64,000 nucleotides of DNA from Vulcanimicrobiota bacterium (GTDB taxonomy: Bacteria > Vulcanimicrobiota > Vulcanimicrobiia > Vulcanimicrobiales > Vulcanimicrobiaceae), in NCBI GenBank assembly GCA_963714015.1, contig OY970223.1, positions 1,472,001-1,536,000 on the forward strand, given 5' to 3'. How positions within the stretch are numbered: the stretch's first letter is position 1; each line of letters opens with the position of its first letter. Below are positions 4,574-37,395 of the stretch, one piece after another. Under the pieces are notes generated by a model, which made no database searches, had not been told where the DNA came from, and worked only from the letters and a program-made list of their open reading frames with translations. Made by a program: the position numbers and the translations under genes.

Positions 4574-4589
4574 CCTATCGTCAATTAAC

Positions 4590-4660
4590 CGGGGACCCCG
4601 CCCGCGAATAGATGGGCGGCGGCGTGAAGCGCTCAGCGCGGATACGCCTGTTTGAAGGAG
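4590..4660 (+). repeat. Dispersed copy of the structured intergenic element also found (reverse strand) in the 33.1-33.4 kb tandem array
   Basis: GGGGACCCCGCCC-N10-GGGCGGCGGCGTGAAGCGCTCAGCGCGGATACGCCTGTTTGAAGGAG aligns with GGGGGCCCCGCGCG...GCGGGGGGCGTGGAGCGCGGAGCGCGCATACGCCTGTTCAAACGAAGGAG. Confidence 0.75.
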
Positions 4661-4664
4661 GCAT

Positions 4665-28586: not shown

Positions 28587-29456
28587 GTGAGCCTTCGCAT
28601 CAACCGAGCGGAGTTGGTCATTACCGCGGTTACAGCTGAGGCCGCGGCTCCGCGCTTGAACACCGGTTTGTACGAAGTCGGCGCCGATGGGCGGCCGTTC
28701 GTACTCCCCAGCGTGGGCGGCATTAATCCCAACGTCAGGGTTGGCGACCTCGCCTTCGGATTCGCCGCCGATCACATCGAGCCGGCAGTCAGCCTGCGCA
28801 ATCCGGACGATCGCTTGAACGCGGCATTCAATACGCTCGCGTGCATCGGGAACGAAGCGGTCGTGTTGACCGGCGATGCGAAAGGCGCTAAAGGCGTCGT
28901 TACCGGAAAGCACGGCGGCATCGAACACGTCATGGTCGATTTTCCGCCGGAGATCATGCGCAAGATGGCGATCGGCGATCGCGTGCAGGTATGGAGTTGC
29001 GGCTTGGGTTTGAGACTGCTGGAGACGCCTGACGTCGGCGCGTTCAATGCGGATCCGGATTTTCTCGAAGCTTGGGCGCCGGAAGTGCGGGCCGACGGAA
29101 CGCTCGCAGTGCGAGTTGCAAAAACCGTTCCCGCAGCCGTCATGGGATCCGGCCTTGGACGTTCGACGGTCGTGCGCGGCGACTACGACATTCAGACGTT
29201 CGACGACGAAATGGCCGAAAAATATGGGCTGCGCGAGCTTCGTCTGGGTGACGTCGTCGCGATTCTCGACGCGGATCATTCGTATGGAAGAATTTACCGG
29301 TCGGGAGCGGTCTCCGTCGGCGTCGTCGTCCACGGCCGATCTTTCGTCGCGGGTCACGGTCCGGGCGTAACGACTTTGCTGACCTCGCCGGAGGGTAGAA
29401 TTTACCCGGTGATCGACCAGACCGCAAACCTCGCCACAATACTGAAGCTCCGGTAA
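28587..29456 (+). CDS. DUF4438-family protein
   Basis: LPSVGGINPNVRVGD, ADHIEPAVS, ACIGN, TGKHGG, MGSGLG, GDYDI, AGHGPG. Confidence 0.75.
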   Translation: MSLRINRAELVITAVTAEAAAPRLNTGLYEVGADGRPFVLPSVGGINPNVRVGDLAFGFAADHIEPAVSLRNPDDRLNAAFNTLACIGNEAVVLTGDAKGAKGVVTGKHGGIEHVMVDFPPEIMRKMAIGDRVQVWSCGLGLRLLETPDVGAFNADPDFLEAWAPEVRADGTLAVRVAKTVPAAVMGSGLGRSTVVRGDYDIQTFDDEMAEKYGLRELRLGDVVAILDADHSYGRIYRSGAVSVGVVVHGRSFVAGHGPGVTTLLTSPEGRIYPVIDQTANLATILKLR

Positions 29457-30427
29457 TGGACGCCCAGCGCGCTTTGTTTTCGGCAGTCAACCAACTCATC
29501 GCCGCGCGCAGCGTCGAAGACTTGGATCGCGGGCTGGTCGAGGTCTCGCCCGGCGCAGCGGGGTTCGAACGCGTCGCCCTGCTCGCGCTCCCGACGATGC
29601 AGCAACCCGCCCGCGTGCGCTTCGTGCGCGGCACTCCAGCGCTCGACTTGAACGACGTCCCCGACTCCTCGCCTCTGGCTGCGGGCGGGGTCCTGAGCGG
29701 GGACATGGCCGGAGCATCGGGCGATGCCGAAGAGCCGCACCGCGGGGTCCAGGGTTCCTACGTCCTTGCGCCGCTTCGGGAGAGGGAGCGCCCCGTTGCG
29801 CTGGTGTACGCCGATTCGCTGCGGGAGAGCGCGAGCCCGGACGAGGCTCGGGAAGCGTTGCTCCACGTTCTGGCCGTCGCCGGCGTCGTTCGTGCCGGCC
29901 TGAATCTCGCACTGGAACGAGATCGCCTGCTTGGAGAACTCGACTCGGCCTCACGGGTCGACCCGCTCACGGCTCTGTCCAACCGTCGGGTCTTCGAAGA
30001 GCGTCTGGCAGGCGAACTGCACCGCAGTGCGCGCAGCCGGCGCCCGTTCGCCCTGGCCCTCTTTGACGTGGACCGGCTGGATGAGATCAACCGCACCTTC
30101 GGGCGACCGGCGGGCGATGAGGCGCTGCAGCACTTCGGGGCGGTGCTGCGCGGCCGGGCGCGTCACATGGACCTGGCGGCACGTCTGGCGGACGACGAAT
30201 TTGCCATGTTGCTGGTGGACGTCGACCACCAAGCCGCCCGTTCCGTGGTCGAACGGGTTTTGGACGGCGCTCGCGAAGCTAGCCTATCGGTTCCCGCACG
30301 CCTTTCAGTTTCTGCCGGAATCGCTCTGAACTACCCGGTCGATACGGCTGAAACGCTGATGGAGAGAGCCCAAGCGGCACTCGCCGACGCCAAACGGTCC
30401 GGCCGCGATAGGACCAAGATTATGTAA
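29456..30427 (+). CDS. GAF-like plus degenerate GGDEF-domain protein
   Basis: DPLTALSNRR, FDVD, INRTFG, RLADDEF in place of GGDEF. Confidence 0.82.
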   Translation: MDAQRALFSAVNQLIAARSVEDLDRGLVEVSPGAAGFERVALLALPTMQQPARVRFVRGTPALDLNDVPDSSPLAAGGVLSGDMAGASGDAEEPHRGVQGSYVLAPLRERERPVALVYADSLRESASPDEAREALLHVLAVAGVVRAGLNLALERDRLLGELDSASRVDPLTALSNRRVFEERLAGELHRSARSRRPFALALFDVDRLDEINRTFGRPAGDEALQHFGAVLRGRARHMDLAARLADDEFAMLLVDVDHQAARSVVERVLDGAREASLSVPARLSVSAGIALNYPVDTAETLMERAQAALADAKRSGRDRTKIM

Positions 30428-30650: not shown

Positions 30651-32057
30651 CTACAGAACCCCGGAAGGTCCCATACCTTCCAAGCGCTTCTTTAGATCGG
30701 CAAGGAAGCCGCTGGCGACGTAACCGTCGACGACGCGGTGGTCGAGTGAGAGGCAGACGTTCATCATTTGACGCACGGCAATTGCATCGTCGGCCGTGAC
30801 GACGGGCTTTTTCACGACGGTTTCCATCGTAACGATGCCCGCCTGGCCGCCGTTGATGATCGGCGCCGAAGCGTATGAACCGTTCGCGCCGTTGTTGTTG
30901 ACCGTGAACGTTCCGCCTTGCAGATCGTCGGCCGAGAGCTTAGCGCGGCGCGCTCGCTCGATCAGATCGCCCGACGCCAGCGCCAAGCCTTTGATCGAGA
31001 GTTTATCGGCGTTCTTAACGACCGGAACGACGAGATTCGTCGGCAGACCGATCGCGATACCGACGTTGACGTTCTTCTCTACCGCGATGCCTTCGGGCGT
31101 AAAGCGCGCGTTCATCAGCGGGAAGGTCGCCAGAGATTCCACTACAGCTCGGACGAAGAACGGCAACAACGTCAGCTTATAACCGGTGTCGCGCTCGAAT
31201 TTATCTTTTTCGCGCGTGCGCCATTTCCAGACGTTGGTCACGTCGACTTCAACCATCGACCAAGCGTGCGGCGCGGTATGCTTGCTCTCCACCATGCGCT
31301 GCGCGATGATTTTCCGTGCCGAGCTCAGCGGAATGAGCGTGCCCGGAATCGGTTCCCCGTAGGTGCTCGTTCCGCTCGGCGGCGTTTGCGCAGGGGGCGC
31401 CGTGGGCGGCATCGCGGGAGCGCCTGTAGCGGCGAAATTCGTTCCCACGCCGACGGCCTGGCCGACCGCGGCCGCCGGGCCCATACGCGCCGCCGTCAGC
31501 ACGTCTTCAGCCGTGACGCGCCCGTTTGCGCCGGATCCCCGCAGCGTTCGAATGTCGATATGATGCTCTCGCGCCAACTTGCGCACGGCCGGCGACGTAC
31601 CTCGCAGTGCCGTTTCAGGAACCTGCTCCGGCTGTCCCACGCGCGCATGGCCGTTTCCGACGTGTTTGGTCGGCATTTCCGGAATATTGAATCCGGGAAC
31701 CGGCTCGGCATTCGCGCTCTCGGCCATGGCCGACCGCGATTGCGGCGGATTCGAAGCACTCTGTGCAACCTGCGCCGCCGGCTCCGTTCCGGGCGCATTC
31801 GTCCCGGTCGCCGCACCGACTTCATCGATCACGGCAATCGGCGTGCCGGTCGCAACGGTCGTCCCTTCCTGCACCAGAATCTCGCGCAGCGTGCCGGTCA
31901 CCGGCGCCGGAACTTCCGAATTTACTTTGTCCGTCGAAACTTCAAGGAACGCCTCGTACTTTTCGACCGGCTCGCCGGCCTTCTTGAGCCAGCGCTCCAC
32001 GGTTCCTTCGGTAACCGTCTCGCCCAACTGGGGCATCGTAATCGTCGTCGCCATCAT
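30651..32057 (-). CDS. 2-oxo-acid dehydrogenase E2 (dihydrolipoamide acyltransferase, BCKDH-like)
   Basis: Lipoyl domain MPQLGE...STDKVNSE, E3-binding SPAVRKLA...GSGANGRVT, DHRVVDG. Confidence 0.93.
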   Translation of the reverse strand: MMATTITMPQLGETVTEGTVERWLKKAGEPVEKYEAFLEVSTDKVNSEVPAPVTGTLREILVQEGTTVATGTPIAVIDEVGAATGTNAPGTEPAAQVAQSASNPPQSRSAMAESANAEPVPGFNIPEMPTKHVGNGHARVGQPEQVPETALRGTSPAVRKLAREHHIDIRTLRGSGANGRVTAEDVLTAARMGPAAAVGQAVGVGTNFAATGAPAMPPTAPPAQTPPSGTSTYGEPIPGTLIPLSSARKIIAQRMVESKHTAPHAWSMVEVDVTNVWKWRTREKDKFERDTGYKLTLLPFFVRAVVESLATFPLMNARFTPEGIAVEKNVNVGIAIGLPTNLVVPVVKNADKLSIKGLALASGDLIERARRAKLSADDLQGGTFTVNNNGANGSYASAPIINGGQAGIVTMETVVKKPVVTADDAIAVRQMMNVCLSLDHRVVDGYVASGFLADLKKRLEGMGPSGVL

Positions 32058-32128: not shown

Positions 32129-33133
32129 TTAGAATTTCACGAGCTCGCGCATAGCGTCGGCCATCTCGGCTGGAGAAGACATGTACTCTTCCTCCAGTGG
32201 GAGCGCGTAGCCCATCGCCGGGACGTCCGGTGCCGCGAGACGTCGAATCGGCGCGTCCATCTCGAAGAATGCTTCTTCCGCGACCATTGCGCTGATTTCG
32301 GCGCCGATGCCGCCGAACTTGTTGTCCTCGTGAATGATGAGCAGCTTGCGCGTCTTGCGGATGCTTTCAAGAATCGTCGTGCCGTCCATCGGACGGATCG
32401 AACGCAGGTCGATGACTTCGACCGACATGCCTTCGTTCTCGAGTGCGTTTGCCGCTTCGATCGCCCAATGCACGTACAAACCGTAAGACACGACCGTCAG
32501 TTGTGTGCCGGCTTTTTTGACGTCGGCCTTGCCGATCGGGATCGTGTAGTGACCGTCGGGCACTTCGCCTTTGATCAGGCGATAGGTCTTCTTGTGCTCG
32601 AGAAAGAGGACCGGATCCGGATCGTCGATAGCCGCATTCAGTAAGCCTTTGACGTCGGCGGGGAATGAGGGCGCCACGATCTTGAGGCCCGGAACGTGGT
32701 AGAACAGCGCTTCAATCGATACGGAGTGCGAAAGCGCGCCGCGAACGCCGCCGCCGTATGGCGTGCGGATAACGAGCGGGCACGTGTATTCACCGTTGCT
32801 GCGATAACGCGTCTTGGCCGCTTCGCCGACGATTTGATTGTATGCCGGGTAGATGAAGTCGGCAAACTGAATCTCGGCGATGGGCCGCAGGCCTTCCATA
32901 GCCATGCCGACCGCGATACCGACGATCGACGCTTCGGCGATCGGCGTGTCGATCACGCGTTCCGGCCCGAATTCCTTGATGAAGTCCTTCGTGATCAGGA
33001 AGACGTTGCCGCGATTGCCGACGTCTTCGCCGAGTATGACCGTGCGGTCGTCGTTCTTCATCGCCTCGTACAACGTCGCGCGCACCGCTTCGACGTTGTT
33101 CAGAATCTGCGACGTGCCGGCGGCTACTGCCAT
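32129..33133 (-). CDS. 2-oxo-acid dehydrogenase E1 beta subunit
   Basis: LGEDVG, DTPIAE, EIQFADF, HSVS, FLEHK, IDLRS; SD GAAGGAG before ATG 33133. Confidence 0.94.
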   Translation of the reverse strand: MAVAAGTSQILNNVEAVRATLYEAMKNDDRTVILGEDVGNRGNVFLITKDFIKEFGPERVIDTPIAEASIVGIAVGMAMEGLRPIAEIQFADFIYPAYNQIVGEAAKTRYRSNGEYTCPLVIRTPYGGGVRGALSHSVSIEALFYHVPGLKIVAPSFPADVKGLLNAAIDDPDPVLFLEHKKTYRLIKGEVPDGHYTIPIGKADVKKAGTQLTVVSYGLYVHWAIEAANALENEGMSVEVIDLRSIRPMDGTTILESIRKTRKLLIIHEDNKFGGIGAEISAMVAEEAFFEMDAPIRRLAAPDVPAMGYALPLEEEYMSSPAEMADAMRELVKF

Positions 33134-33258
33134 GGCTGCCACGCTCCTTCGTTTGAACAGGCGTATGCGCGCTCCGCGCTCCACGCCCCCCGCACGCTAA
33201 GCGCGCGGGGCCCCCGACCTTCGGTCCCCTTGCCAAGGTTGAATGTGGTCACTGCCAT
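33124..33258 (-). CDS. Repeat-encoded mini-ORF 3 (44 aa, MAVTTFNLGKG...EGAWQPWQ)
   Basis: ATG overlaps the stop of mini-ORF 2 (SD variant GAAGAAG); its stop overlaps the E1beta ATG. Confidence 0.5.
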   Translation of the reverse strand: MAVTTFNLGKGTEGRGPRALSVRGAWSAERAYACSNEGAWQPWQ

Positions 33259-33383
33259 GGCTGCCACGCTTCTTCGTTTGAACAGGCGTATGCGCGCTCC
33301 GCGCTCCACGCCCCCCGCACGCTAAGCGCGCGGGGCCCCCGACCTTCGGTCCCCTTGCCAAGGTTTAATGTCGTCACTGCCAT
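33249..33383 (-). CDS. Repeat-encoded mini-ORF 2 (44 aa, MAVTTLNLGKG...EEAWQPWQ)
   Basis: SD GAAGGAG plus ATG overlapping the previous stop; open to the next junction. Confidence 0.5.
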   Translation of the reverse strand: MAVTTLNLGKGTEGRGPRALSVRGAWSAERAYACSNEEAWQPWQ

Positions 33384-33439
33384 GGCTGCCACGCTCCTTC
33401 GTTTGAACAGGCGTATGGGCGCTCCGCGGTCACTGCCAT
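33374..33439 (-). CDS. Repeat-encoded mini-ORF 1 (21 aa, MAVTAERPYACSNEGAWQPWQ)
   Basis: SD GAAGGAG plus ATG overlapping the E1alpha stop; ends at the next junction stop. Confidence 0.5.
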   Translation of the reverse strand: MAVTAERPYACSNEGAWQPWQ

Positions 33440-34458
33440 GGCTGCCACGCTCCTTCGTAGAGATTCGCGTATAGTTCGGATGGGGCCGGGTAGGCCATAG
33501 TCTCGGCTTTGTCGGTCGCTTCGTTCGTTTCGCGAAGCACGTCTTTCTTGAGCGCCTCGATGCTTTGTGCGTTCAGCACGCCCGCATCGGTCAAGATGCG
33601 CTCGAAGCGCGGAACCGGATCGAACTTGCGGTTCTCCGTAACCTCGTCCTTGGTGCGGTAAGTCATGTCGTTGTCGTCGGTCGAGTGCGCCAGAAAACGA
33701 TAGCATACGCCCTCGATCAAACTCGGACCGCCGCCGCTGCGCGCGCGATCCATTGCGCGTTTCACGACGTCGTACGTCGCAATCGGATCGAATCCGTCGA
33801 ACTGCTCGCCCGGCATACCATAGCCTTCCGCGCGCTTGAAGATGTTAGGCTCCGCCATCTGCTGGTCCAGCGGCGTGGAGATCGCCCATTGATTGTTCTC
33901 GACCAGCATCACGAGCGGCAGCTTGTGAATCGACGCGAAATTCATGGACTCGTGCCACTCGCCTTCGCTCGTCGTTCCGTCGCCGCAGGTTACTAGAACG
34001 GCGCGCCCCGTTTCCTTGCGATATTTCATCGAATACGCGGCACCGACAGCGTGCGGAATGTGCGCGGCCAGAATCGAGGAAAACGACATCAGCCCGGCAC
34101 GTTTGGACGAATAGTGGTTCGGGAACTGGCGGCCGCCGTTGTGGTCGGCGGCCCGCGCGAATATGGAGAGCATGATCTCGTAAGCCGACAGACCGATGCC
34201 GGTCGCTAGGCCGAGATCGCGATAGTACGGCGCGAGTATGTCCTTGCCGCGCTCGAACGCCATTGCCGCGCCCGCCTGCAGCGCTTCGTGCCCCTCACTT
34301 CCGAGCGCAAAAGGCACCTTGCCTTGGCGGTTGAGTTGAAAGCCGCGGTTGTCCAATTGCCGCTGCAGCAGCATATTACGGAATATCGCGACCAGCTGTT
34401 CGTCGGACAGCCCATGCCGCTCCAGTGTTCCGCGCACTTGAGTATTCGTTTTTGCCAT
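33430..34458 (-). CDS. 2-oxo-acid dehydrogenase E1 alpha subunit (paralogue 2)
   Basis: GHEA, PYYRD, CGDGTTSEGEWHE...VENNQWAIS ThDP motif, YRFLAHSTDD. Confidence 0.93.
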   Translation of the reverse strand: MAKTNTQVRGTLERHGLSDEQLVAIFRNMLLQRQLDNRGFQLNRQGKVPFALGSEGHEALQAGAAMAFERGKDILAPYYRDLGLATGIGLSAYEIMLSIFARAADHNGGRQFPNHYSSKRAGLMSFSSILAAHIPHAVGAAYSMKYRKETGRAVLVTCGDGTTSEGEWHESMNFASIHKLPLVMLVENNQWAISTPLDQQMAEPNIFKRAEGYGMPGEQFDGFDPIATYDVVKRAMDRARSGGGPSLIEGVCYRFLAHSTDDNDMTYRTKDEVTENRKFDPVPRFERILTDAGVLNAQSIEALKKDVLRETNEATDKAETMAYPAPSELYANLYEGAWQPWQ

Positions 34459-34478
34459 ATGTCACGTTTCCTGAGCTG

Positions 34479-35504
34479 TTACTGCCATGGTTTCCACGAG
34501 TTCGCGTAGACGTCCGTGTAGAGAGCCGCGGTCTCGGGATACGGCATTGCTTCCGCCCTGTCCGTGGCTTCGTTCGCCTCGGCCAGTACGGATGACTTCA
34601 CGGACTCCGCCTGCGCCTCGGTGATCACGCCGCGCTCCACCAACAAGCGTTCGAACTTCGGGACGGGATCGTCTTTTCTCCGGGTGGCGACTTCTTCGCG
34701 CGAACGATAGGTTCGGTCGTCGTCGTCGGTCGTGTGCGCAAGAAAGCGGTAGCACTTGGCTTCGACTAAAGTCGGTCCGCCGCCGTGCCGCGCGCGGTCC
34801 ATCGCGTCCTTTACCGTCGCATATACTGCGAGCGGATCGAAGCCGTCTACGCGCATACCGGGAATGCCGTATCCGGCAGCGCGCTTATAAATATCCGGCT
34901 GACCCATTTGCCCTGAGAGCGGCGTGCTGATAGCCCACTCGTTGTTCTCGCACAGAAAGACTACCGGCAGCTTGTGGACGCTCGCGAAATTGAGCGACTC
35001 GTGCCATTCCCCCTCGCTCGTAGCACCGTCCCCGAACGTGGTCAAGACGGCGCGGCCGTGCGCTTTGCGCAATTTGAGCGCGTATGCGGCGCCGACGGCA
35101 TGCGACGTCTGCGCGGCGATGATGGAGCTGATGGTGTACATTCCCAGCCTCTTGCTGGCGTAGTGATGCGGAAACTGACGTCCGGCGCTATGGTCGCCGG
35201 CTCGGGCGAAAAGCGAGAGGAGGACCTCGTAAGGAGTTAACCCGACGCCAAGCTCGAGGCCCAGATCCCGATAATAGGGGACCAGGATGTCCTTGCCGCG
35301 CTCGAACGCCATGGCTGCGCCCGCTTGAACGGCCTCATGACCTTCGCCGGCTGAAGCGAACGGGATTTTGCCTTGCCGGTTCAGTTCGAAGCCGCGCCCT
35401 TCTAAACGGCGGTGCGTAAGCATGATGCGCCAAATTGCGATCAACTGCTCGTCGGTCAAACCGTGCCGTTCGAATTGGACGCCGGAAGCAGCTTTGGAGG
35501 TCAC
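34479..35504 (-). CDS. 2-oxo-acid dehydrogenase E1 alpha subunit (paralogue 1)
   Basis: GHEA, PYYRD, FGDGATSEGEWHE...CENNEWAIS, YRFLAHTTDD. Confidence 0.93.
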   Translation of the reverse strand: MTSKAASGVQFERHGLTDEQLIAIWRIMLTHRRLEGRGFELNRQGKIPFASAGEGHEAVQAGAAMAFERGKDILVPYYRDLGLELGVGLTPYEVLLSLFARAGDHSAGRQFPHHYASKRLGMYTISSIIAAQTSHAVGAAYALKLRKAHGRAVLTTFGDGATSEGEWHESLNFASVHKLPVVFLCENNEWAISTPLSGQMGQPDIYKRAAGYGIPGMRVDGFDPLAVYATVKDAMDRARHGGGPTLVEAKCYRFLAHTTDDDDRTYRSREEVATRRKDDPVPKFERLLVERGVITEAQAESVKSSVLAEANEATDRAEAMPYPETAALYTDVYANSWKPWQ

Positions 35505-35607: not shown

Positions 35608-37395
35608 GTGTTAGCTGAAGTGCATCAGGACTATCAGGTTCGGCGGCTCTCGATGCTGCGGGCGTACCGCATTCTGGAGACGCCCCAGGATTCGCGCTAC
35701 GACGGAATTACGGAACTGGCCGCCCGCCTGGCCGATGCGCCCAAGGCCCTTCTAGCCTTTGTGGACGACGAGCGCGTCTGGGTAAAGTCCGCCTTCGGCT
35801 GTGAACTCAAGGGCGACCAGCCCGGATTACTAGACTTTCTGACATCCGAAGACGGCCGTCGCATTGCGCTGCCTGCAGCTTCGCGTGACAAACGGCTTGC
35901 GCGTTATCCGTTCATCAAGGCGCTCGTTGCCGTTCCGCTGGTCACGCCGTCCGGCCACGCGATCGGCTATCTCGCTGCGTTCGACGGCGTTGAAAGAGCC
36001 GATTTCGACAATGCACGCGCCGATGCGCTGCAAGCGCTGGCAAAGCAAACCGTCGATCTGCTCGAGCACGACGCCGCAAAGCGTGCCATTACGCTGCGCG
36101 ACGAAGAAGTCTCGCGTTTGGAGTCCCGTATCGCGCGTTTGCAGGCAGCCGATCCCGCGCCGATGGCCATGCCGTGCTCCTTGTTTCTGGATCGTCTCTC
36201 GAAAACGCTGTCCGTTTGTCCTACCAAAGCCGCGCTGCTCTTCATCGATATTCACGCATTCACGCGCGTCAATATCGCGTACGGCCGCGATGCGGGCGAC
36301 GATGCTCTGCGTGAGACCGCCGCTCGGATACGCGAGTGTATCGGCAGCCGCGACACGTTCACGCGGCGTGATGCGGATCATTTTGCAATTCTCGTCGACG
36401 AATTCGATCCGGTCGCGGCAGCGCGGCTGCGAGCGCGTTTGGAAGAGCCGTTGACCGCCCAGAGTGTGCGGGGCGTGCATCTCTCCGTTCGCATCGGCGG
36501 AGTGCACTTGCGGCAAACGGCGGCTGACGAACGCCCGGATCGCGTGCTGCAGCTCGCCGAACGCGCCGCGGCCGATTCGATCGGTTCCGTCGCGTTCGCC
36601 ACCGCAGCGCACCGCGAAAGCGTTCTTTCGAGCGATGCCGTGCTCATGCGCCTGGTTGCCGCGGTGGAACAAGGTTCGATCGACCTGCATTATCAGCCGC
36701 TCGTCGAAGCGCAAACGGAACGGTTTATCGGATTCGAAGCGTTGGCTCGCTGGACGTTGCCCGAAGGCATGCGGGTTGAACCCGCCCAGTTCATGGAACT
36801 TGCCGATCGCTACGGCCAAGCATTCCCTTTAGGTGAGCAGCTGCTGCGCAAAGCTTGTTCGGCCTGCTGCGAGTTCGTAGGAGTCGATCCGGATTTCGTT
36901 TTGCACGTCAACGTCTCGCCGGTGCAGCTCTCTCATCCGCTTTTCGAAGTCTGCGTCAACGACGCGCTGCGCCTAAGCGGCATGCCTGCGAAAAACCTGT
37001 GCCTCGAGATTACCGAAGCAGCGGTCGCACAGCCGGAGATCATCGGACCGAAAATGGCGCGGTTGCGCCAAAGCGGCTTGCGCTTTGCGCTCGACGACTT
37101 CGGAATGGGATACTCCTCACTCAGCCACGTGAGGCGCCTGCCCGTCGACGCGCTCAAGATCGACCGCTTCTTCGTAAGCGGCGCCGGCGACGAGATCGCC
37201 GATCCTCCGATCGCGCGGACCGTTACGACGCTCGCCAAGGAGCTCGGTTTGATCGTTGTCGCGGAAGGCGTCGAGACCGAGCAGCAAGCCGCGTTTTTGC
37301 GAGGGCTAGGCTGTGATGTGCTGCAAGGCTACTATTTCGGACGCCCCGCCCCGATTTCGCCCGCCGGCGCAAACTTGGGCCGGCGGGCGAAATGA
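35608..37395 (+). CDS. GAF-GGDEF(degenerate)-EAL c-di-GMP phosphodiesterase
   Basis: GAF (RLSMLRAYRILET), DADHF in place of GGDEF, FEALARW, DDFGMGYSSL, KIDRFFV, AEGVET. Confidence 0.88.
   Translation: MLAEVHQDYQVRRLSMLRAYRILETPQDSRYDGITELAARLADAPKALLAFVDDERVWVKSAFGCELKGDQPGLLDFLTSEDGRRIALPAASRDKRLARYPFIKALVAVPLVTPSGHAIGYLAAFDGVERADFDNARADALQALAKQTVDLLEHDAAKRAITLRDEEVSRLESRIARLQAADPAPMAMPCSLFLDRLSKTLSVCPTKAALLFIDIHAFTRVNIAYGRDAGDDALRETAARIRECIGSRDTFTRRDADHFAILVDEFDPVAAARLRARLEEPLTAQSVRGVHLSVRIGGVHLRQTAADERPDRVLQLAERAAADSIGSVAFATAAHRESVLSSDAVLMRLVAAVEQGSIDLHYQPLVEAQTERFIGFEALARWTLPEGMRVEPAQFMELADRYGQAFPLGEQLLRKACSACCEFVGVDPDFVLHVNVSPVQLSHPLFEVCVNDALRLSGMPAKNLCLEITEAAVAQPEIIGPKMARLRQSGLRFALDDFGMGYSSLSHVRRLPVDALKIDRFFVSGAGDEIADPPIARTVTTLAKELGLIVVAEGVETEQQAAFLRGLGCDVLQGYYFGRPAPISPAGANLGRRAK

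What the first reader, a model, noticed from the sequence alone, without database searches (positions are those of the whole stretch)
33124..33458. MIRU-like repeat array that duplicates an overlapping stop/start junction and relays translational coupling through three mini-ORFs
Seen: on the minus strand the junction GAAGGAG-CGTGGCAGCC-ATGGCAG-T(GA/AG) contains the SD, the E1beta ATG and the E1alpha stop codon. It occurs four times, with periods of 56, 125 and 125 bp. Each period plus the 10-nt overlap is divisible by 3 (66, 135, 135) and contains no internal stop. Every inserted unit is therefore an ORF (21, 44 and 44 aa) that starts inside the previous stop region and ends with the same ...AWQPWQ* overlapping the next ATG. 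The chain runs E1alpha, ORF1, ORF2, ORF3, E1beta. The units carry GC hairpins (CCTTG-C-CAAGG, GACC-TTC-GGTC, CCCCGC...GCGGGG, GGCGT...ACGCC). Known analogy: mycobacterial interspersed repetitive units (MIRUs, e.g. in senX3-regX3) carry small ORFs that keep operon coupling. Inference: this is a non-autonomous element or VNTR that inserts at gene junctions without polarity and may tune E1alpha:E1beta stoichiometry through copy number.
Basis: partly seen in the sequence, partly recalled or inferred. Interest (0 to 1): 0.85.

Follow-up and report, generated by a model that had tools for sequence, protein, structure and literature searches.

The report
Repeat array relaying translation between genes
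A small hairpin-forming repeat has landed between two subunit genes of a 2-oxoacid dehydrogenase in an uncultured soil bacterium. It was copied together with the genes' overlapping stop/start signal, so three throw-away mini-genes now probably hand ribosomes on to the second subunit, much like the MIRU repeats of mycobacteria.

Summary
On the minus strand the 27-nt E1alpha/E1beta junction occurs four times (periods 56, 125, 125), giving open mini-ORFs of 21, 44 and 44 aa. Each starts at a copy of the E1beta ATG and stops 10 nt into the next copy.

The insert is not a local oddity. Its roughly 90-nt core is a dispersed, sense-oriented, three-hairpin repeat with strong covariation. A covariance model finds 37 matches in this Eremiobacterota genome and matches in 16 of 24 same-family genomes. 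Most copies end right at a start codon. None of 50 orthologous E1 loci has a copy at this junction, so the insertion is lineage-specific.

Unusual features:
- the duplicated target is 27 nt, against 4 nt in MIRUs;
- the E1alpha stop codon is newly made at the insertion boundary;
- no Y1 transposase was found in the genome.

Relay translation is likely but untested, because every mini-ORF has E1beta's own initiation region. Copy-number tuning of stoichiometry has no support. Public reads could not verify the copy number.

This scan found a sister subfamily before, on other DNA of this same genome (e1-7712014), and analogous repeats in other phyla. I class it as a new variant of a known kind (MIRU-like).

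The parts
34479..35504 (-). E1 alpha paralog 1 (341 aa), first gene of the operon
   Evidence: Pfam E1_dh 6.3e-86. 65% identical to paralog 2. NCBIfam best hit is PDH E1 alpha, below its cut-off.
33430..34458 (-). E1 alpha paralog 2 (342 aa). Its present TGA stop lies in junction copy J1.
   Evidence: Pfam E1_dh 8e-79; sequence read.
33430..33456 (-). Junction copy J1: AAGGAG Shine-Dalgarno, 10-nt spacer, ATG at 33439, TGA at 33432-33430
   Evidence: The 16S tail carries CCUCC.
33374..33439 (-). Mini-ORF 1, 21 aa
   Evidence: Translation.
33401..33429 (-). Truncated repeat unit: only the last 29 nt of the core (half of hairpin 3 plus the tail). Equals a full unit minus 69 nt.
   Evidence: family D2; weak model hit 19.5 bits.
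33374..33400 (-). Junction copy J2
33276..33373 (-). Full repeat core, unit 1 (98 nt): 5' part GACGACATTAAACCTTGGCAAG, then hairpins H1, H2, H3 and the tail TGTTCAAAC
   Evidence: Model R1 hit at 33271-33357, 101.2 bits; structure.
33249..33383 (-). Mini-ORF 2, 44 aa
   Evidence: Translation.
33249..33275 (-). Junction copy J3 (GAAGAAG variant)
33151..33248 (-). Full repeat core, unit 2 (98 nt). H1 about 33216-33226, H2 33188-33210, H3 33160-33187.
   Evidence: Model R1 hit at 33146-33232, 99.7 bits; alignment A1 row 1.
33124..33258 (-). Mini-ORF 3, 44 aa. It ends in the ancestral TAG that overlaps the E1beta start.
   Evidence: Translation.
33124..33150 (-). Junction copy J4, the working E1beta initiation region (ATG at 33133)
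   Evidence: Orthologous junctions.
32129..33133 (-). E1 beta (334 aa)
   Evidence: Pfam Transket_pyr and Transketolase_C. NCBIfam NF006667 335.8 bits, over its cut-off of 321.
30651..32057 (-). E2 acyltransferase (468 aa)
   Evidence: Pfam 2-oxoacid_dh, Biotin_lipoyl and E3_binding.
4574..4662 (+). Another copy of the same repeat subfamily in this window. It fills the stop-start spacer before a response-regulator gene, brings its own GAAGGAGG, and has no relay ORF.
   Evidence: Model R1 50 bits. Filled versus empty sites in G001, G013 and G009. No relay ORF.

Best explanation
The array is a lineage-specific insertion, followed by tandem amplification, of a dispersed structured repeat of Baltobacteraceae-type Eremiobacterota. 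It sits at the 10-nt stop/start overlap of the E1alpha and E1beta genes.

The insertion duplicated 27 nt of the target: the Shine-Dalgarno sequence, the E1beta ATG and most of the E1alpha stop. A new TGA stop for E1alpha was made at the left boundary. The 125-nt block (core plus junction) was then duplicated, and one copy lost 69 nt in frame.

Every junction copy is an exact copy of E1beta's own initiation region. Every period is 2 mod 3 with no stop in the relay frame. Ribosomes leaving E1alpha, or loading afresh, therefore most likely translate three throw-away peptides of 21, 44 and 44 aa. Each terminates with the native 10-nt geometry over the next ATG. This would melt the very stable hairpins, avoid an untranslated 335-nt gap and carry translational coupling through to E1beta.

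I read this as damage limitation by, or selective survival of, a selfish element. It is the MIRU principle, not a regulatory device.

Shown: the anatomy, family membership, the RNA-type structure, and absence from orthologous sites. Inferred: transcription through the array, translation of the mini-ORFs, relay of coupling, and the order of events.
For: Anatomy.

Family:
- blastn and nhmmer find copies before gyrA-, rplK- and rplJ-like genes and a response-regulator gene.
- Model R1 gives 37 matches in G000.
- R1 matches in 16 of 24 same-family, 1 of 5 same-order and 0 of 11 same-class genomes.

Structure:
- 22 copies are 94% paired, 7 pairs carry double changes, and 0 of 500 shuffles reach the observed values.
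- G-U at one pair in 22 of 22 copies, and a better fold of the sense strand (-172.9 versus -154.1 kcal/mol), point to the transcribed strand.

Position:
- 21 of 26 G000 loci have the element's 3' end within -8 to +12 nt of a same-strand start codon.
- 17 of 22 scored loci have an ORF of 12 aa or more that stops within -12 to +4 nt of that start.
- Several are complete ATGA-to-ATGA chains, for example genome 161001/161132, 792725 and 2279723.

Empty sites: the junction is a direct overlap, with no model hit there, in 50 of 50 other E1 loci.

Other points:
- The initiation regions of the mini-ORFs are identical to E1beta's from the Shine-Dalgarno sequence to 8 nt after the first base of the ATG, apart from one base in J3.
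- The anti-SD CCUCC is present in the 16S tail.
- No promoter-like or terminator-like site lies inside the array.
- The joint chance of both periods being in frame and open is about 0.04.
Against: - No expression, ribosome or read data exist for this organism.
- Open frames are cheap in this G+C-rich sequence: probability 0.44 by chance.
- The relay design is not universal in this subfamily. The in-window copy at 4574-4662 and the rplJ copy have none. Only 7 of 19 subfamily-I loci in relatives have one.
- E1beta keeps its own good Shine-Dalgarno sequence, so it may not need coupling.
- A 27-nt target duplication is unlike the 4-nt repeats reported for MIRUs, so the insertion route may differ from the rest of the family.
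- Neighbouring junction palindromes (GCCAUGGC) can pair with each other in the predicted fold and might hinder initiation rather than help it.
- Each termination-reinitiation step is expected to lose ribosomes.
Confidence: 0.55

Rival explanations
1. Neutral passenger. The repeat inserted and slipped to 2.4 copies. E1beta is translated independently from its own Shine-Dalgarno sequence at J4. The mini-ORFs are an automatic by-product of duplicating a junction that holds both a start and a stop, and they have no effect on E1beta.
For: - The open frame has a chance probability of 0.44, and the frame property overall about 0.04, which is not overwhelming.
- J4 keeps a perfect AAGGAG.
- Other subfamily-I copies work without a relay.
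- The units are nearly identical (98%), so the array is young and little tested by selection.
Against: - Both independent unit lengths are in frame, and so is the 69-nt deletion.
- The sister subfamily shows stop-on-start tails at most loci.
- Identical initiation regions make it hard for the mini-ORFs not to be translated.
Confidence: 0.25
2. The RNA structure is the function. The stable hairpins H2 and H3 act in the operon mRNA as a processing site, a decay barrier or a pause site. They set different levels of the E1alpha and E1beta-E2 segments, as intercistronic REP sequences do in enterobacteria. The ORFs are incidental.
For: - Strong, strand-specific covariation of the hairpins.
- Sense-strand fold z-score of -2.7.
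- The family always lies in sense orientation inside transcription units.
- The REP precedent is listed in the references of PMC3184786 (Stern et al. 1988; reference entry only seen).
Against: - Translating ribosomes would unfold the hairpins if the mini-ORFs are used.
- Presence is patchy among orthologous sites and genomes, which fits a mobile element better than a conserved regulator.
- There is no U-tract or terminator.
Confidence: 0.1
3. Adaptive rheostat. Copy number varies between cells or strains and tunes the E1alpha:E1beta ratio.
For: - Tandem arrays with different unit numbers occur at other loci of the family: 2 or 3 units at six G000 loci.
- Tandem repeats are prone to slippage (general knowledge).
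Against: - No second strain or read set carrying the locus was found.
- An obligate alpha2beta2 enzyme gains nothing obvious from skewing the ratio.
- A second E1alpha paralog already sits upstream.
Confidence: 0.07
4. Assembly artefact: the array or its copy number was created by the assembler.
For: - The genome is a single-contig metagenome assembly.
- No public read or contig bridges the array.
Against: - The units differ by 3 substitutions, and one carries a clean 69-nt deletion.
- Similar arrays of the family occur at several other loci and in other genomes.
- The flanking genes are intact.
Confidence: 0.03

Closest known systems
MIRU, mycobacterial interspersed repetitive units (Supply et al. 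1997). I saw them only as passages in PMC12548453 and PMC3184786; the original paper was not read.
   Same: - Size 40-100 bp, tens of copies per genome, G+C-rich internal inverted repeats, often in tandem.
- They lie inside operons at start codons in gene orientation.
- They carry small ORFs whose ends overlap the flanking stop and start, so the insertion is thought to do little harm to expression.
   Different: - An unrelated phylum (Eremiobacterota).
- Sequence relation was not tested.
- Here the overlap is 10 nt and comes from a 27-nt duplicate of the host junction, not a 4-nt ATGA repeat.
- The relay start sites are exact copies of the host gene's own initiation region.
- A three-hairpin structure with covariation is conserved.
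- No strain-level VNTR evidence.
The sister subfamily in the same genome (tail TTTTAAAATGA), noted earlier by this scan as e1-7712014
   Same: - The same covariance model detects both subfamilies.
- Same hairpin plan, sense orientation, start-codon adjacency and tandem arrays with periods of 121-131.
- Relay ORFs chained by ATGA overlaps.
   Different: - The sister subfamily carries its own stop-start-stop tail (TAA, ATG, TGA within 8 nt) and its own 5' GGGGAGG plus ATG.
- The E1 array has lost the TAA (TGTTCAAAC) and uses duplicated host sequence instead.
REP/BIME elements and their RAYT transposases (PMC2817692 and PMC3184786; abstract or passage seen)
   Same: Short G+C-rich hairpin repeats inside transcription units. 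Intercistronic copies can affect mRNA fate.
   Different: - REPs usually number over 100 per genome, occur in alternating orientations and lie after genes.
- REPs are tied to a Y1 transposase. PF01797 gives 0 hits in G000.
- This family is sense-only and sits 5' of start codons.
Synthetic bicistronic-design coupling cassettes (mentioned in a passage of PMC12548453, its reference 78)
   Same: A short leader ORF ends on the start codon of the gene of interest, so that arriving ribosomes unfold structure and reinitiate.
   Different: Those are man-made and single-step. Here there is a natural three-step chain on a mobile repeat.

Membership tests
MIRU-like intercistronic relay repeats (design class) | Dispersed short repeat (40-100 bp), tens of copies per genome | tested here: met
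   The core is 87-98 nt. There are 37 model matches in G000 and 1-38 in 17 other genomes.
MIRU-like intercistronic relay repeats (design class) | Lies at start codons inside transcription units, in gene orientation | tested here: met
   21 of 26 G000 loci have a same-strand start within -8 to +12 nt. 13 of 19 subfamily-I loci in relatives have one within -14 to +48 nt.
MIRU-like intercistronic relay repeats (design class) | Small ORF in the repeat whose ends overlap the flanking stop and start codons | tested here: met
   Met for this array. Family-wide it is partial: 17 of 22 G000 loci and 7 of 19 subfamily-I loci in relatives.
MIRU-like intercistronic relay repeats (design class) | Tetranucleotide direct repeats flanking filled sites | tested here: not met
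   Here the duplication is 27 nt. Copy 4574-4662 shows no clear duplication against its empty sites. ATGA occurs at both ends only in sister-subfamily loci.
MIRU-like intercistronic relay repeats (design class) | Empty orthologous sites in relatives (mobility) | tested here: met
   0 of 50 other E1 loci carry it at this junction. Empty sites for copy 4574-4662 were seen in G001, G013 and G009.
MIRU-like intercistronic relay repeats (design class) | Copy number varies between strains (VNTR); transcribed within a polycistronic mRNA | not testable with these tools
   No run or contig holds the array.
MIRU proper (mycobacterial family) | Sequence homology to mycobacterial MIRU units | not tested
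   No MIRU sequence was available from a tool. Rfam has no match in 32500-34000 above chance.
REP / REPIN with RAYT | Cognate Y1 (IS200/IS605-like) transposase in the genome | tested here: not met
   PF01797 gives 0 matches in G000, which is 89.6% complete. The control genomes gave hits in 6 of 14.
MITE | Terminal inverted repeats at the element ends | tested here: not met
   The repeat finder lists only internal hairpin arms and the junction palindromes. No pair joins the two ends of a unit.

The most novel reading that the evidence does not exclude
Baltobacteraceae carry a so far undescribed class of start-codon-seeking, RNA-structured repeats. They spread without a Y1 transposase, possibly by microhomology-guided template switching. 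The element tail ...AAACGAAGRAG matches the target ...CTACGAAGGAG, which would explain a templated insertion plus an 18-27-nt duplication. They survive because they rebuild a stop-on-start relay. At the E1 junction the relay is built from the host's own initiation region, giving a natural copy-number series that sets how much coupling reaches E1beta.
Probability: 0.15. Interest if true: 0.75.

Novelty: new variant of a known kind. Interest (0 to 1): 0.5.

Why it matters
MIRUs are, in the texts I could search, the only repeats said to insert at start codons and keep genes expressed through a coupled mini-ORF (no paper among those listed uses 'MIRU-like'). An independent family of the same design in an uncultured phylum suggests that translation-relaying selfish DNA is a general solution rather than a mycobacterial curiosity. 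This array is a clean natural test case: three exact copies of a gene's own initiation region chained at a fixed 10-nt overlap.

It also matters for annotation:
- such arrays create false small genes and false N-terminal extensions (ORF listing gives a 351-aa E1beta from an upstream GTG);
- they can change the stop codon of the upstream gene.

Tried and rejected
- Reads: the look-up of sequencing runs listed 7 runs. The best holds 0.19 of the sampled words, and no RNA holder is listed. Read laying on 4 runs gave only short contigs of relatives or low depth. None bridges 33124-33458, so copy number and VNTR status remain open.
- Metagenome contig scans for the unit's 5' part and for tail plus junction: 0 hits each.
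- Rfam: only two chance-level sRNA matches outside the array.
- Y1 transposase or RAYT partner: none found.
- Terminal inverted repeats: none found.
- Promoter or terminator inside the array: none found.
- Donor copy: no other G000 sequence matches the unit's first 22 nt. A similar 5' part (ACCACAT...AACCTTGGC) was seen only in one G002 copy (L097).
- I considered that the shared element before the rplK- and rplJ-like genes might be a ribosomal-protein leader. I rejected this because the same element precedes unrelated genes and is absent from orthologous sites.
- My first ORF script and the chain script mis-called some gene starts. For the E1 array it took an in-frame GTG 9 nt upstream, and it scored 1234977 as 'no start near'. 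Those rows are counted as stated, not corrected.
- One search failed on a strand argument and was repeated correctly.
Full report
**1. The observation**

Reading the minus strand of 32900-33700 shows the 27-nt string GAAGGAGCGTGGCAGCCATGGCAGT(GA) at 33456, 33400 and 33275. The third copy has GAAGAAG. A fourth copy, ending in TAG, starts at 33150.
- The periods are 56, 125 and 125.
- TRF and the repeat finder report the same array: 2 copies of 125 nt at 98% identity, and 3 copies of the 56-nt segment.
- Pfam identifies the flanking genes as E1 alpha (33430-34458), E1 beta (32129-33133) and E2 (30651-32057).
- NCBIfam places them nearest PDH-type heteromeric E1. Only the beta subunit scores over its curated cut-off.

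Translation gives open frames of 21, 44 and 44 aa. Each begins at the ATG of one junction and ends at the stop of the next. The 21-aa ORF is the 44-aa ORF minus 23 codons, so the 56-nt unit is a 125-nt unit with an in-frame 69-nt deletion.

**2. What the insert is**

blastn of the array against the whole 3.56-Mb single-contig genome showed that the core is not unique. The 27-nt junction and the first 22 nt of each unit are unique to this locus.

Copies of 78-92% identity lie just 5' of genes that I read from their first codons as gyrA-, rplK- and rplJ-like, and of a response-regulator gene at window 4574-4662. nhmmer with a seed profile confirmed these.

The best E1beta relatives in the genome collection are Eremiobacterota (WPS-2/Vulcanimicrobiota), mostly Baltobacteraceae or Cybelea MAGs. 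A DNA search of 40 relatives found the core scattered in several of them. I fetched 20 such places.

**3. Structure**

An alignment of 22 copies from six genomes (A1) has three hairpins:
- H1, a short GGCC-GAA-GGCC;
- H2, a 10-bp stem;
- H3, a two-tier stem (GGCGUG...UACGCC around GCGC-NNN-GCGC).

RNAalifold recovers H2 and H3. Counting pairs on my structure gives:
- 94% of cells paired, against 29-57% when the partners are slid by 1-3 columns;
- 7 pairs with changes on both sides;
- 0 of 500 shuffles reaching the observed values.

Most covariation is in the middle of H2. H3 hardly varies. One pair is G-U in 22 of 22 copies and another is G-U in 8. On the other strand these would be C-A mismatches. 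The sense strand of the array also folds better than the antisense strand: -172.9 kcal/mol (z -2.7) against -154.1 kcal/mol (z -1.7). The structure therefore belongs to the transcribed strand.

**4. The family**

A covariance model (R1) finds 37 matches in G000 at E <= 1. They fall into two groups:
- the subfamily of the E1 array (subfamily I), which ends ...GGATACGCCTGTTAAA;
- a commoner sister subfamily (subfamily II), which ends ...GGAGCGCCTTTTAAAATGA.

In relatives the model matches 16 of 24 same-family genomes, 1 of 5 same-order and 0 of 11 same-class, with 1-38 matches per genome. These tallies include the unpublished genome G023. The tallies include G021, G023 and G036.

Grouping the G000 matches gives 26 loci:
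- In 21 of 26, the 3' end of the proximal unit lies within -8 to +12 nt of the start codon of a same-strand downstream gene.
- Four have no such gene, and one was not resolved.
- In 17 of 22 loci scored by my chain script, an ORF of 12 aa or more stops within -12 to +4 nt of that start.
- The stop is an NTGA overlap in 11 loci, a TAA just before the ATG in 5 and a TAG in 1.

Complete chains occur, for example genome 161001/161132 (gene, 35 aa, 30 aa, gene). Others are 792725 before an atpA-like gene (34 aa) and 2279723 between S17-like and L14-like genes (23 aa, ATGA at both ends).

The sister-subfamily tail TTTTAAAATGA holds a TAA, the ATG and a TGA in the three frames. A ribosome arriving in either non-gene frame therefore stops within 8 nt of the start.

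I confirmed that the locus holds a model match (1234977-1235057) and read its sequence.

For subfamily I the picture is looser:
- Of 19 loci in relatives, 13 have a same-strand start within -14 to +48 nt and 7 have a relay-type ORF.
- The in-window copy at 4574-4662 has stops in all frames. Compared with empty sites in G001, G013 and G009, it simply fills a 9-27-nt spacer and brings its own GAAGGAGG.

**5. The E1 junction in relatives**

I printed the junctions of 39 Eremiobacterota-type loci. By my reading, about 32 show the same overlap...TACGAAGGAGCNTGG(G/C)A(A/G)CC(A/G/T)TGGC... with the stop a few bases later. The rest have other short junctions.

Model R1 run over 51 E1 loci hits the alpha/beta junction only in G000's own locus. 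That is 0 of 50 others. One weak hit in L022 lies after E1beta.

In one search, the alignments of the E1alpha 3' end and the E1beta 5' end overlap or abut in the relatives. For example, G002 aligns at 33266-33533 and 33507-33756. The array is therefore a recent, lineage-specific gain.

**6. How it was built (inference)**

After ...ATGGCAGT the three upstream junctions continue GAC..., while the last continues AGCC... like the relatives.
- The element's left end is therefore GAC(C/G)ACATT.... A similar 5' part occurs in one G002 copy.
- The present E1alpha stop TGA is made of one target base plus two element bases.
- The ancestral TAG survives only in J4.
- The right end of the element (...TGTTCAAACGAAGRAG) resembles both the native tails of other copies (...TTTCAACGAAGA...GTTTGAAGGAGG) and the target (...CTACGAAGGAG).

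A templated insertion by template switching at this 9-nt microhomology would give exactly such an insert plus an 18-nt re-copied stretch. This is a hypothesis only.

No Y1 transposase, no terminal inverted repeats and no donor copy were found.

**7. How it most likely works**

- The array has no promoter-like or terminator-like site, so it should be co-transcribed with the operon.
- Each of J1-J3 is identical to E1beta's own initiation region, from AAGGAG (AAGAAG in J3) through the ATG and five more bases.
- The 16S tail carries the canonical anti-SD.

Whatever lets ribosomes start E1beta should also start the mini-ORFs, and each mini-ORF ends with the same 10-nt stop-over-start geometry as the native junction. 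I therefore expect a chain of termination-reinitiation or fresh initiation steps. These would keep H2 and H3 melted and leave no long untranslated stretch.

The evidence for selection is modest. Both independent lengths (125 and 56) are 2 mod 3, and the frame is open. The chance of this is about 1/3 x 0.44 x 1/3 x about 0.75, roughly 0.04.

Points against the relay reading:
- E1beta's own Shine-Dalgarno sequence may suffice.
- The junction palindromes can pair with one another in the predicted fold.
- No expression data exist.

Copy-number tuning of subunit ratio is unsupported.

**8. Comparison and novelty**

The design matches MIRUs as described in the passages I read (PMC12548453, section on functional consequences; PMC3184786, MIRU section). 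Those are 40-100 bp, about 40-50 copies, inside operons at start codons, with an ORF coupled at -4 nt, tetranucleotide direct repeats and empty sites in a relative. I did not read Supply et al. 1997 itself.

The differences here are:
- the phylum;
- the conserved three-hairpin structure;
- the 27-nt duplication and the 10-nt overlap;
- the reuse of the host's own initiation region.

A full-text search for such repeats listed nothing on Eremiobacterota repeats or 'MIRU-like' elements among the papers shown. That is a limited search, not proof of absence.

Within this scan the kind has been met before, in this genome and in Acidimicrobiia, Rokubacteria and actinomycetes. I did not check those notes.

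Verdict: a real feature, and a new variant of a known kind. Moderate interest.

Noticed in passing
window 34479-35504 and 33430-34458 (-): There are two tandem E1 alpha paralogs (65% identical) ahead of a single E1 beta. A second ORF of 250 aa or more just upstream of E1alpha-2 was found by script in 24 of 37 relatives' loci (not each was verified as E1 alpha). Second DNA hits about 1070 nt upstream appear. The duplication is therefore old and conserved.
   Followed up: partly
window 34462-34488 (-): E1alpha-1 also ends ...PWQ* with CCATGGCAGTAA. The embedded ATG opens an 8-codon ORF (MAVTAQET*) that stops 3 nt before the E1alpha-2 ATG. In relatives the spacer differs, so this is probably incidental.
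   Followed up: partly
G000 genome 161001-161205, 524549-524865, 707633-707964, 950904-951105, 2436755-2436962, 2759819-2760025: Tandem arrays of 2 or 3 units of the sister subfamily, with periods of 121-131 nt, lie directly before gene starts (a gyrB-like gene, an aminotransferase-like gene and others). Several have ORFs running or chained through all units to an NTGA overlap.
   Followed up: partly
G000 genome about 1028900-1029550 (L113): The region before the gyrA-like gene holds two subfamily-I copies 325 nt apart. It also holds tandem sub-repeats of about 44 nt that begin with the H1 motif (GGGCCGAAGGC...CACTCAAACGAACGTAAA), suggesting that the family is modular.
   Followed up: no
L022:4038-4115: In a WPS-2 MAG a weak family match (31 bits) lies just after E1beta, at the E1beta/E2 junction of the orthologous operon.
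   Followed up: no
G000 genome 1902731-1902827 versus L093 (G002): The copy between the nusG-like and rplK-like genes is full length in G002. In G000 it lacks H1 and the 5' half, apparently through an internal deletion. The site has therefore been occupied since before the two species split.
   Followed up: no
window 29456-30427 (+) and 35608-37395 (+): GGDEF and GGDEF-EAL genes flank the dehydrogenase operon on the opposite strand.
   Followed up: no
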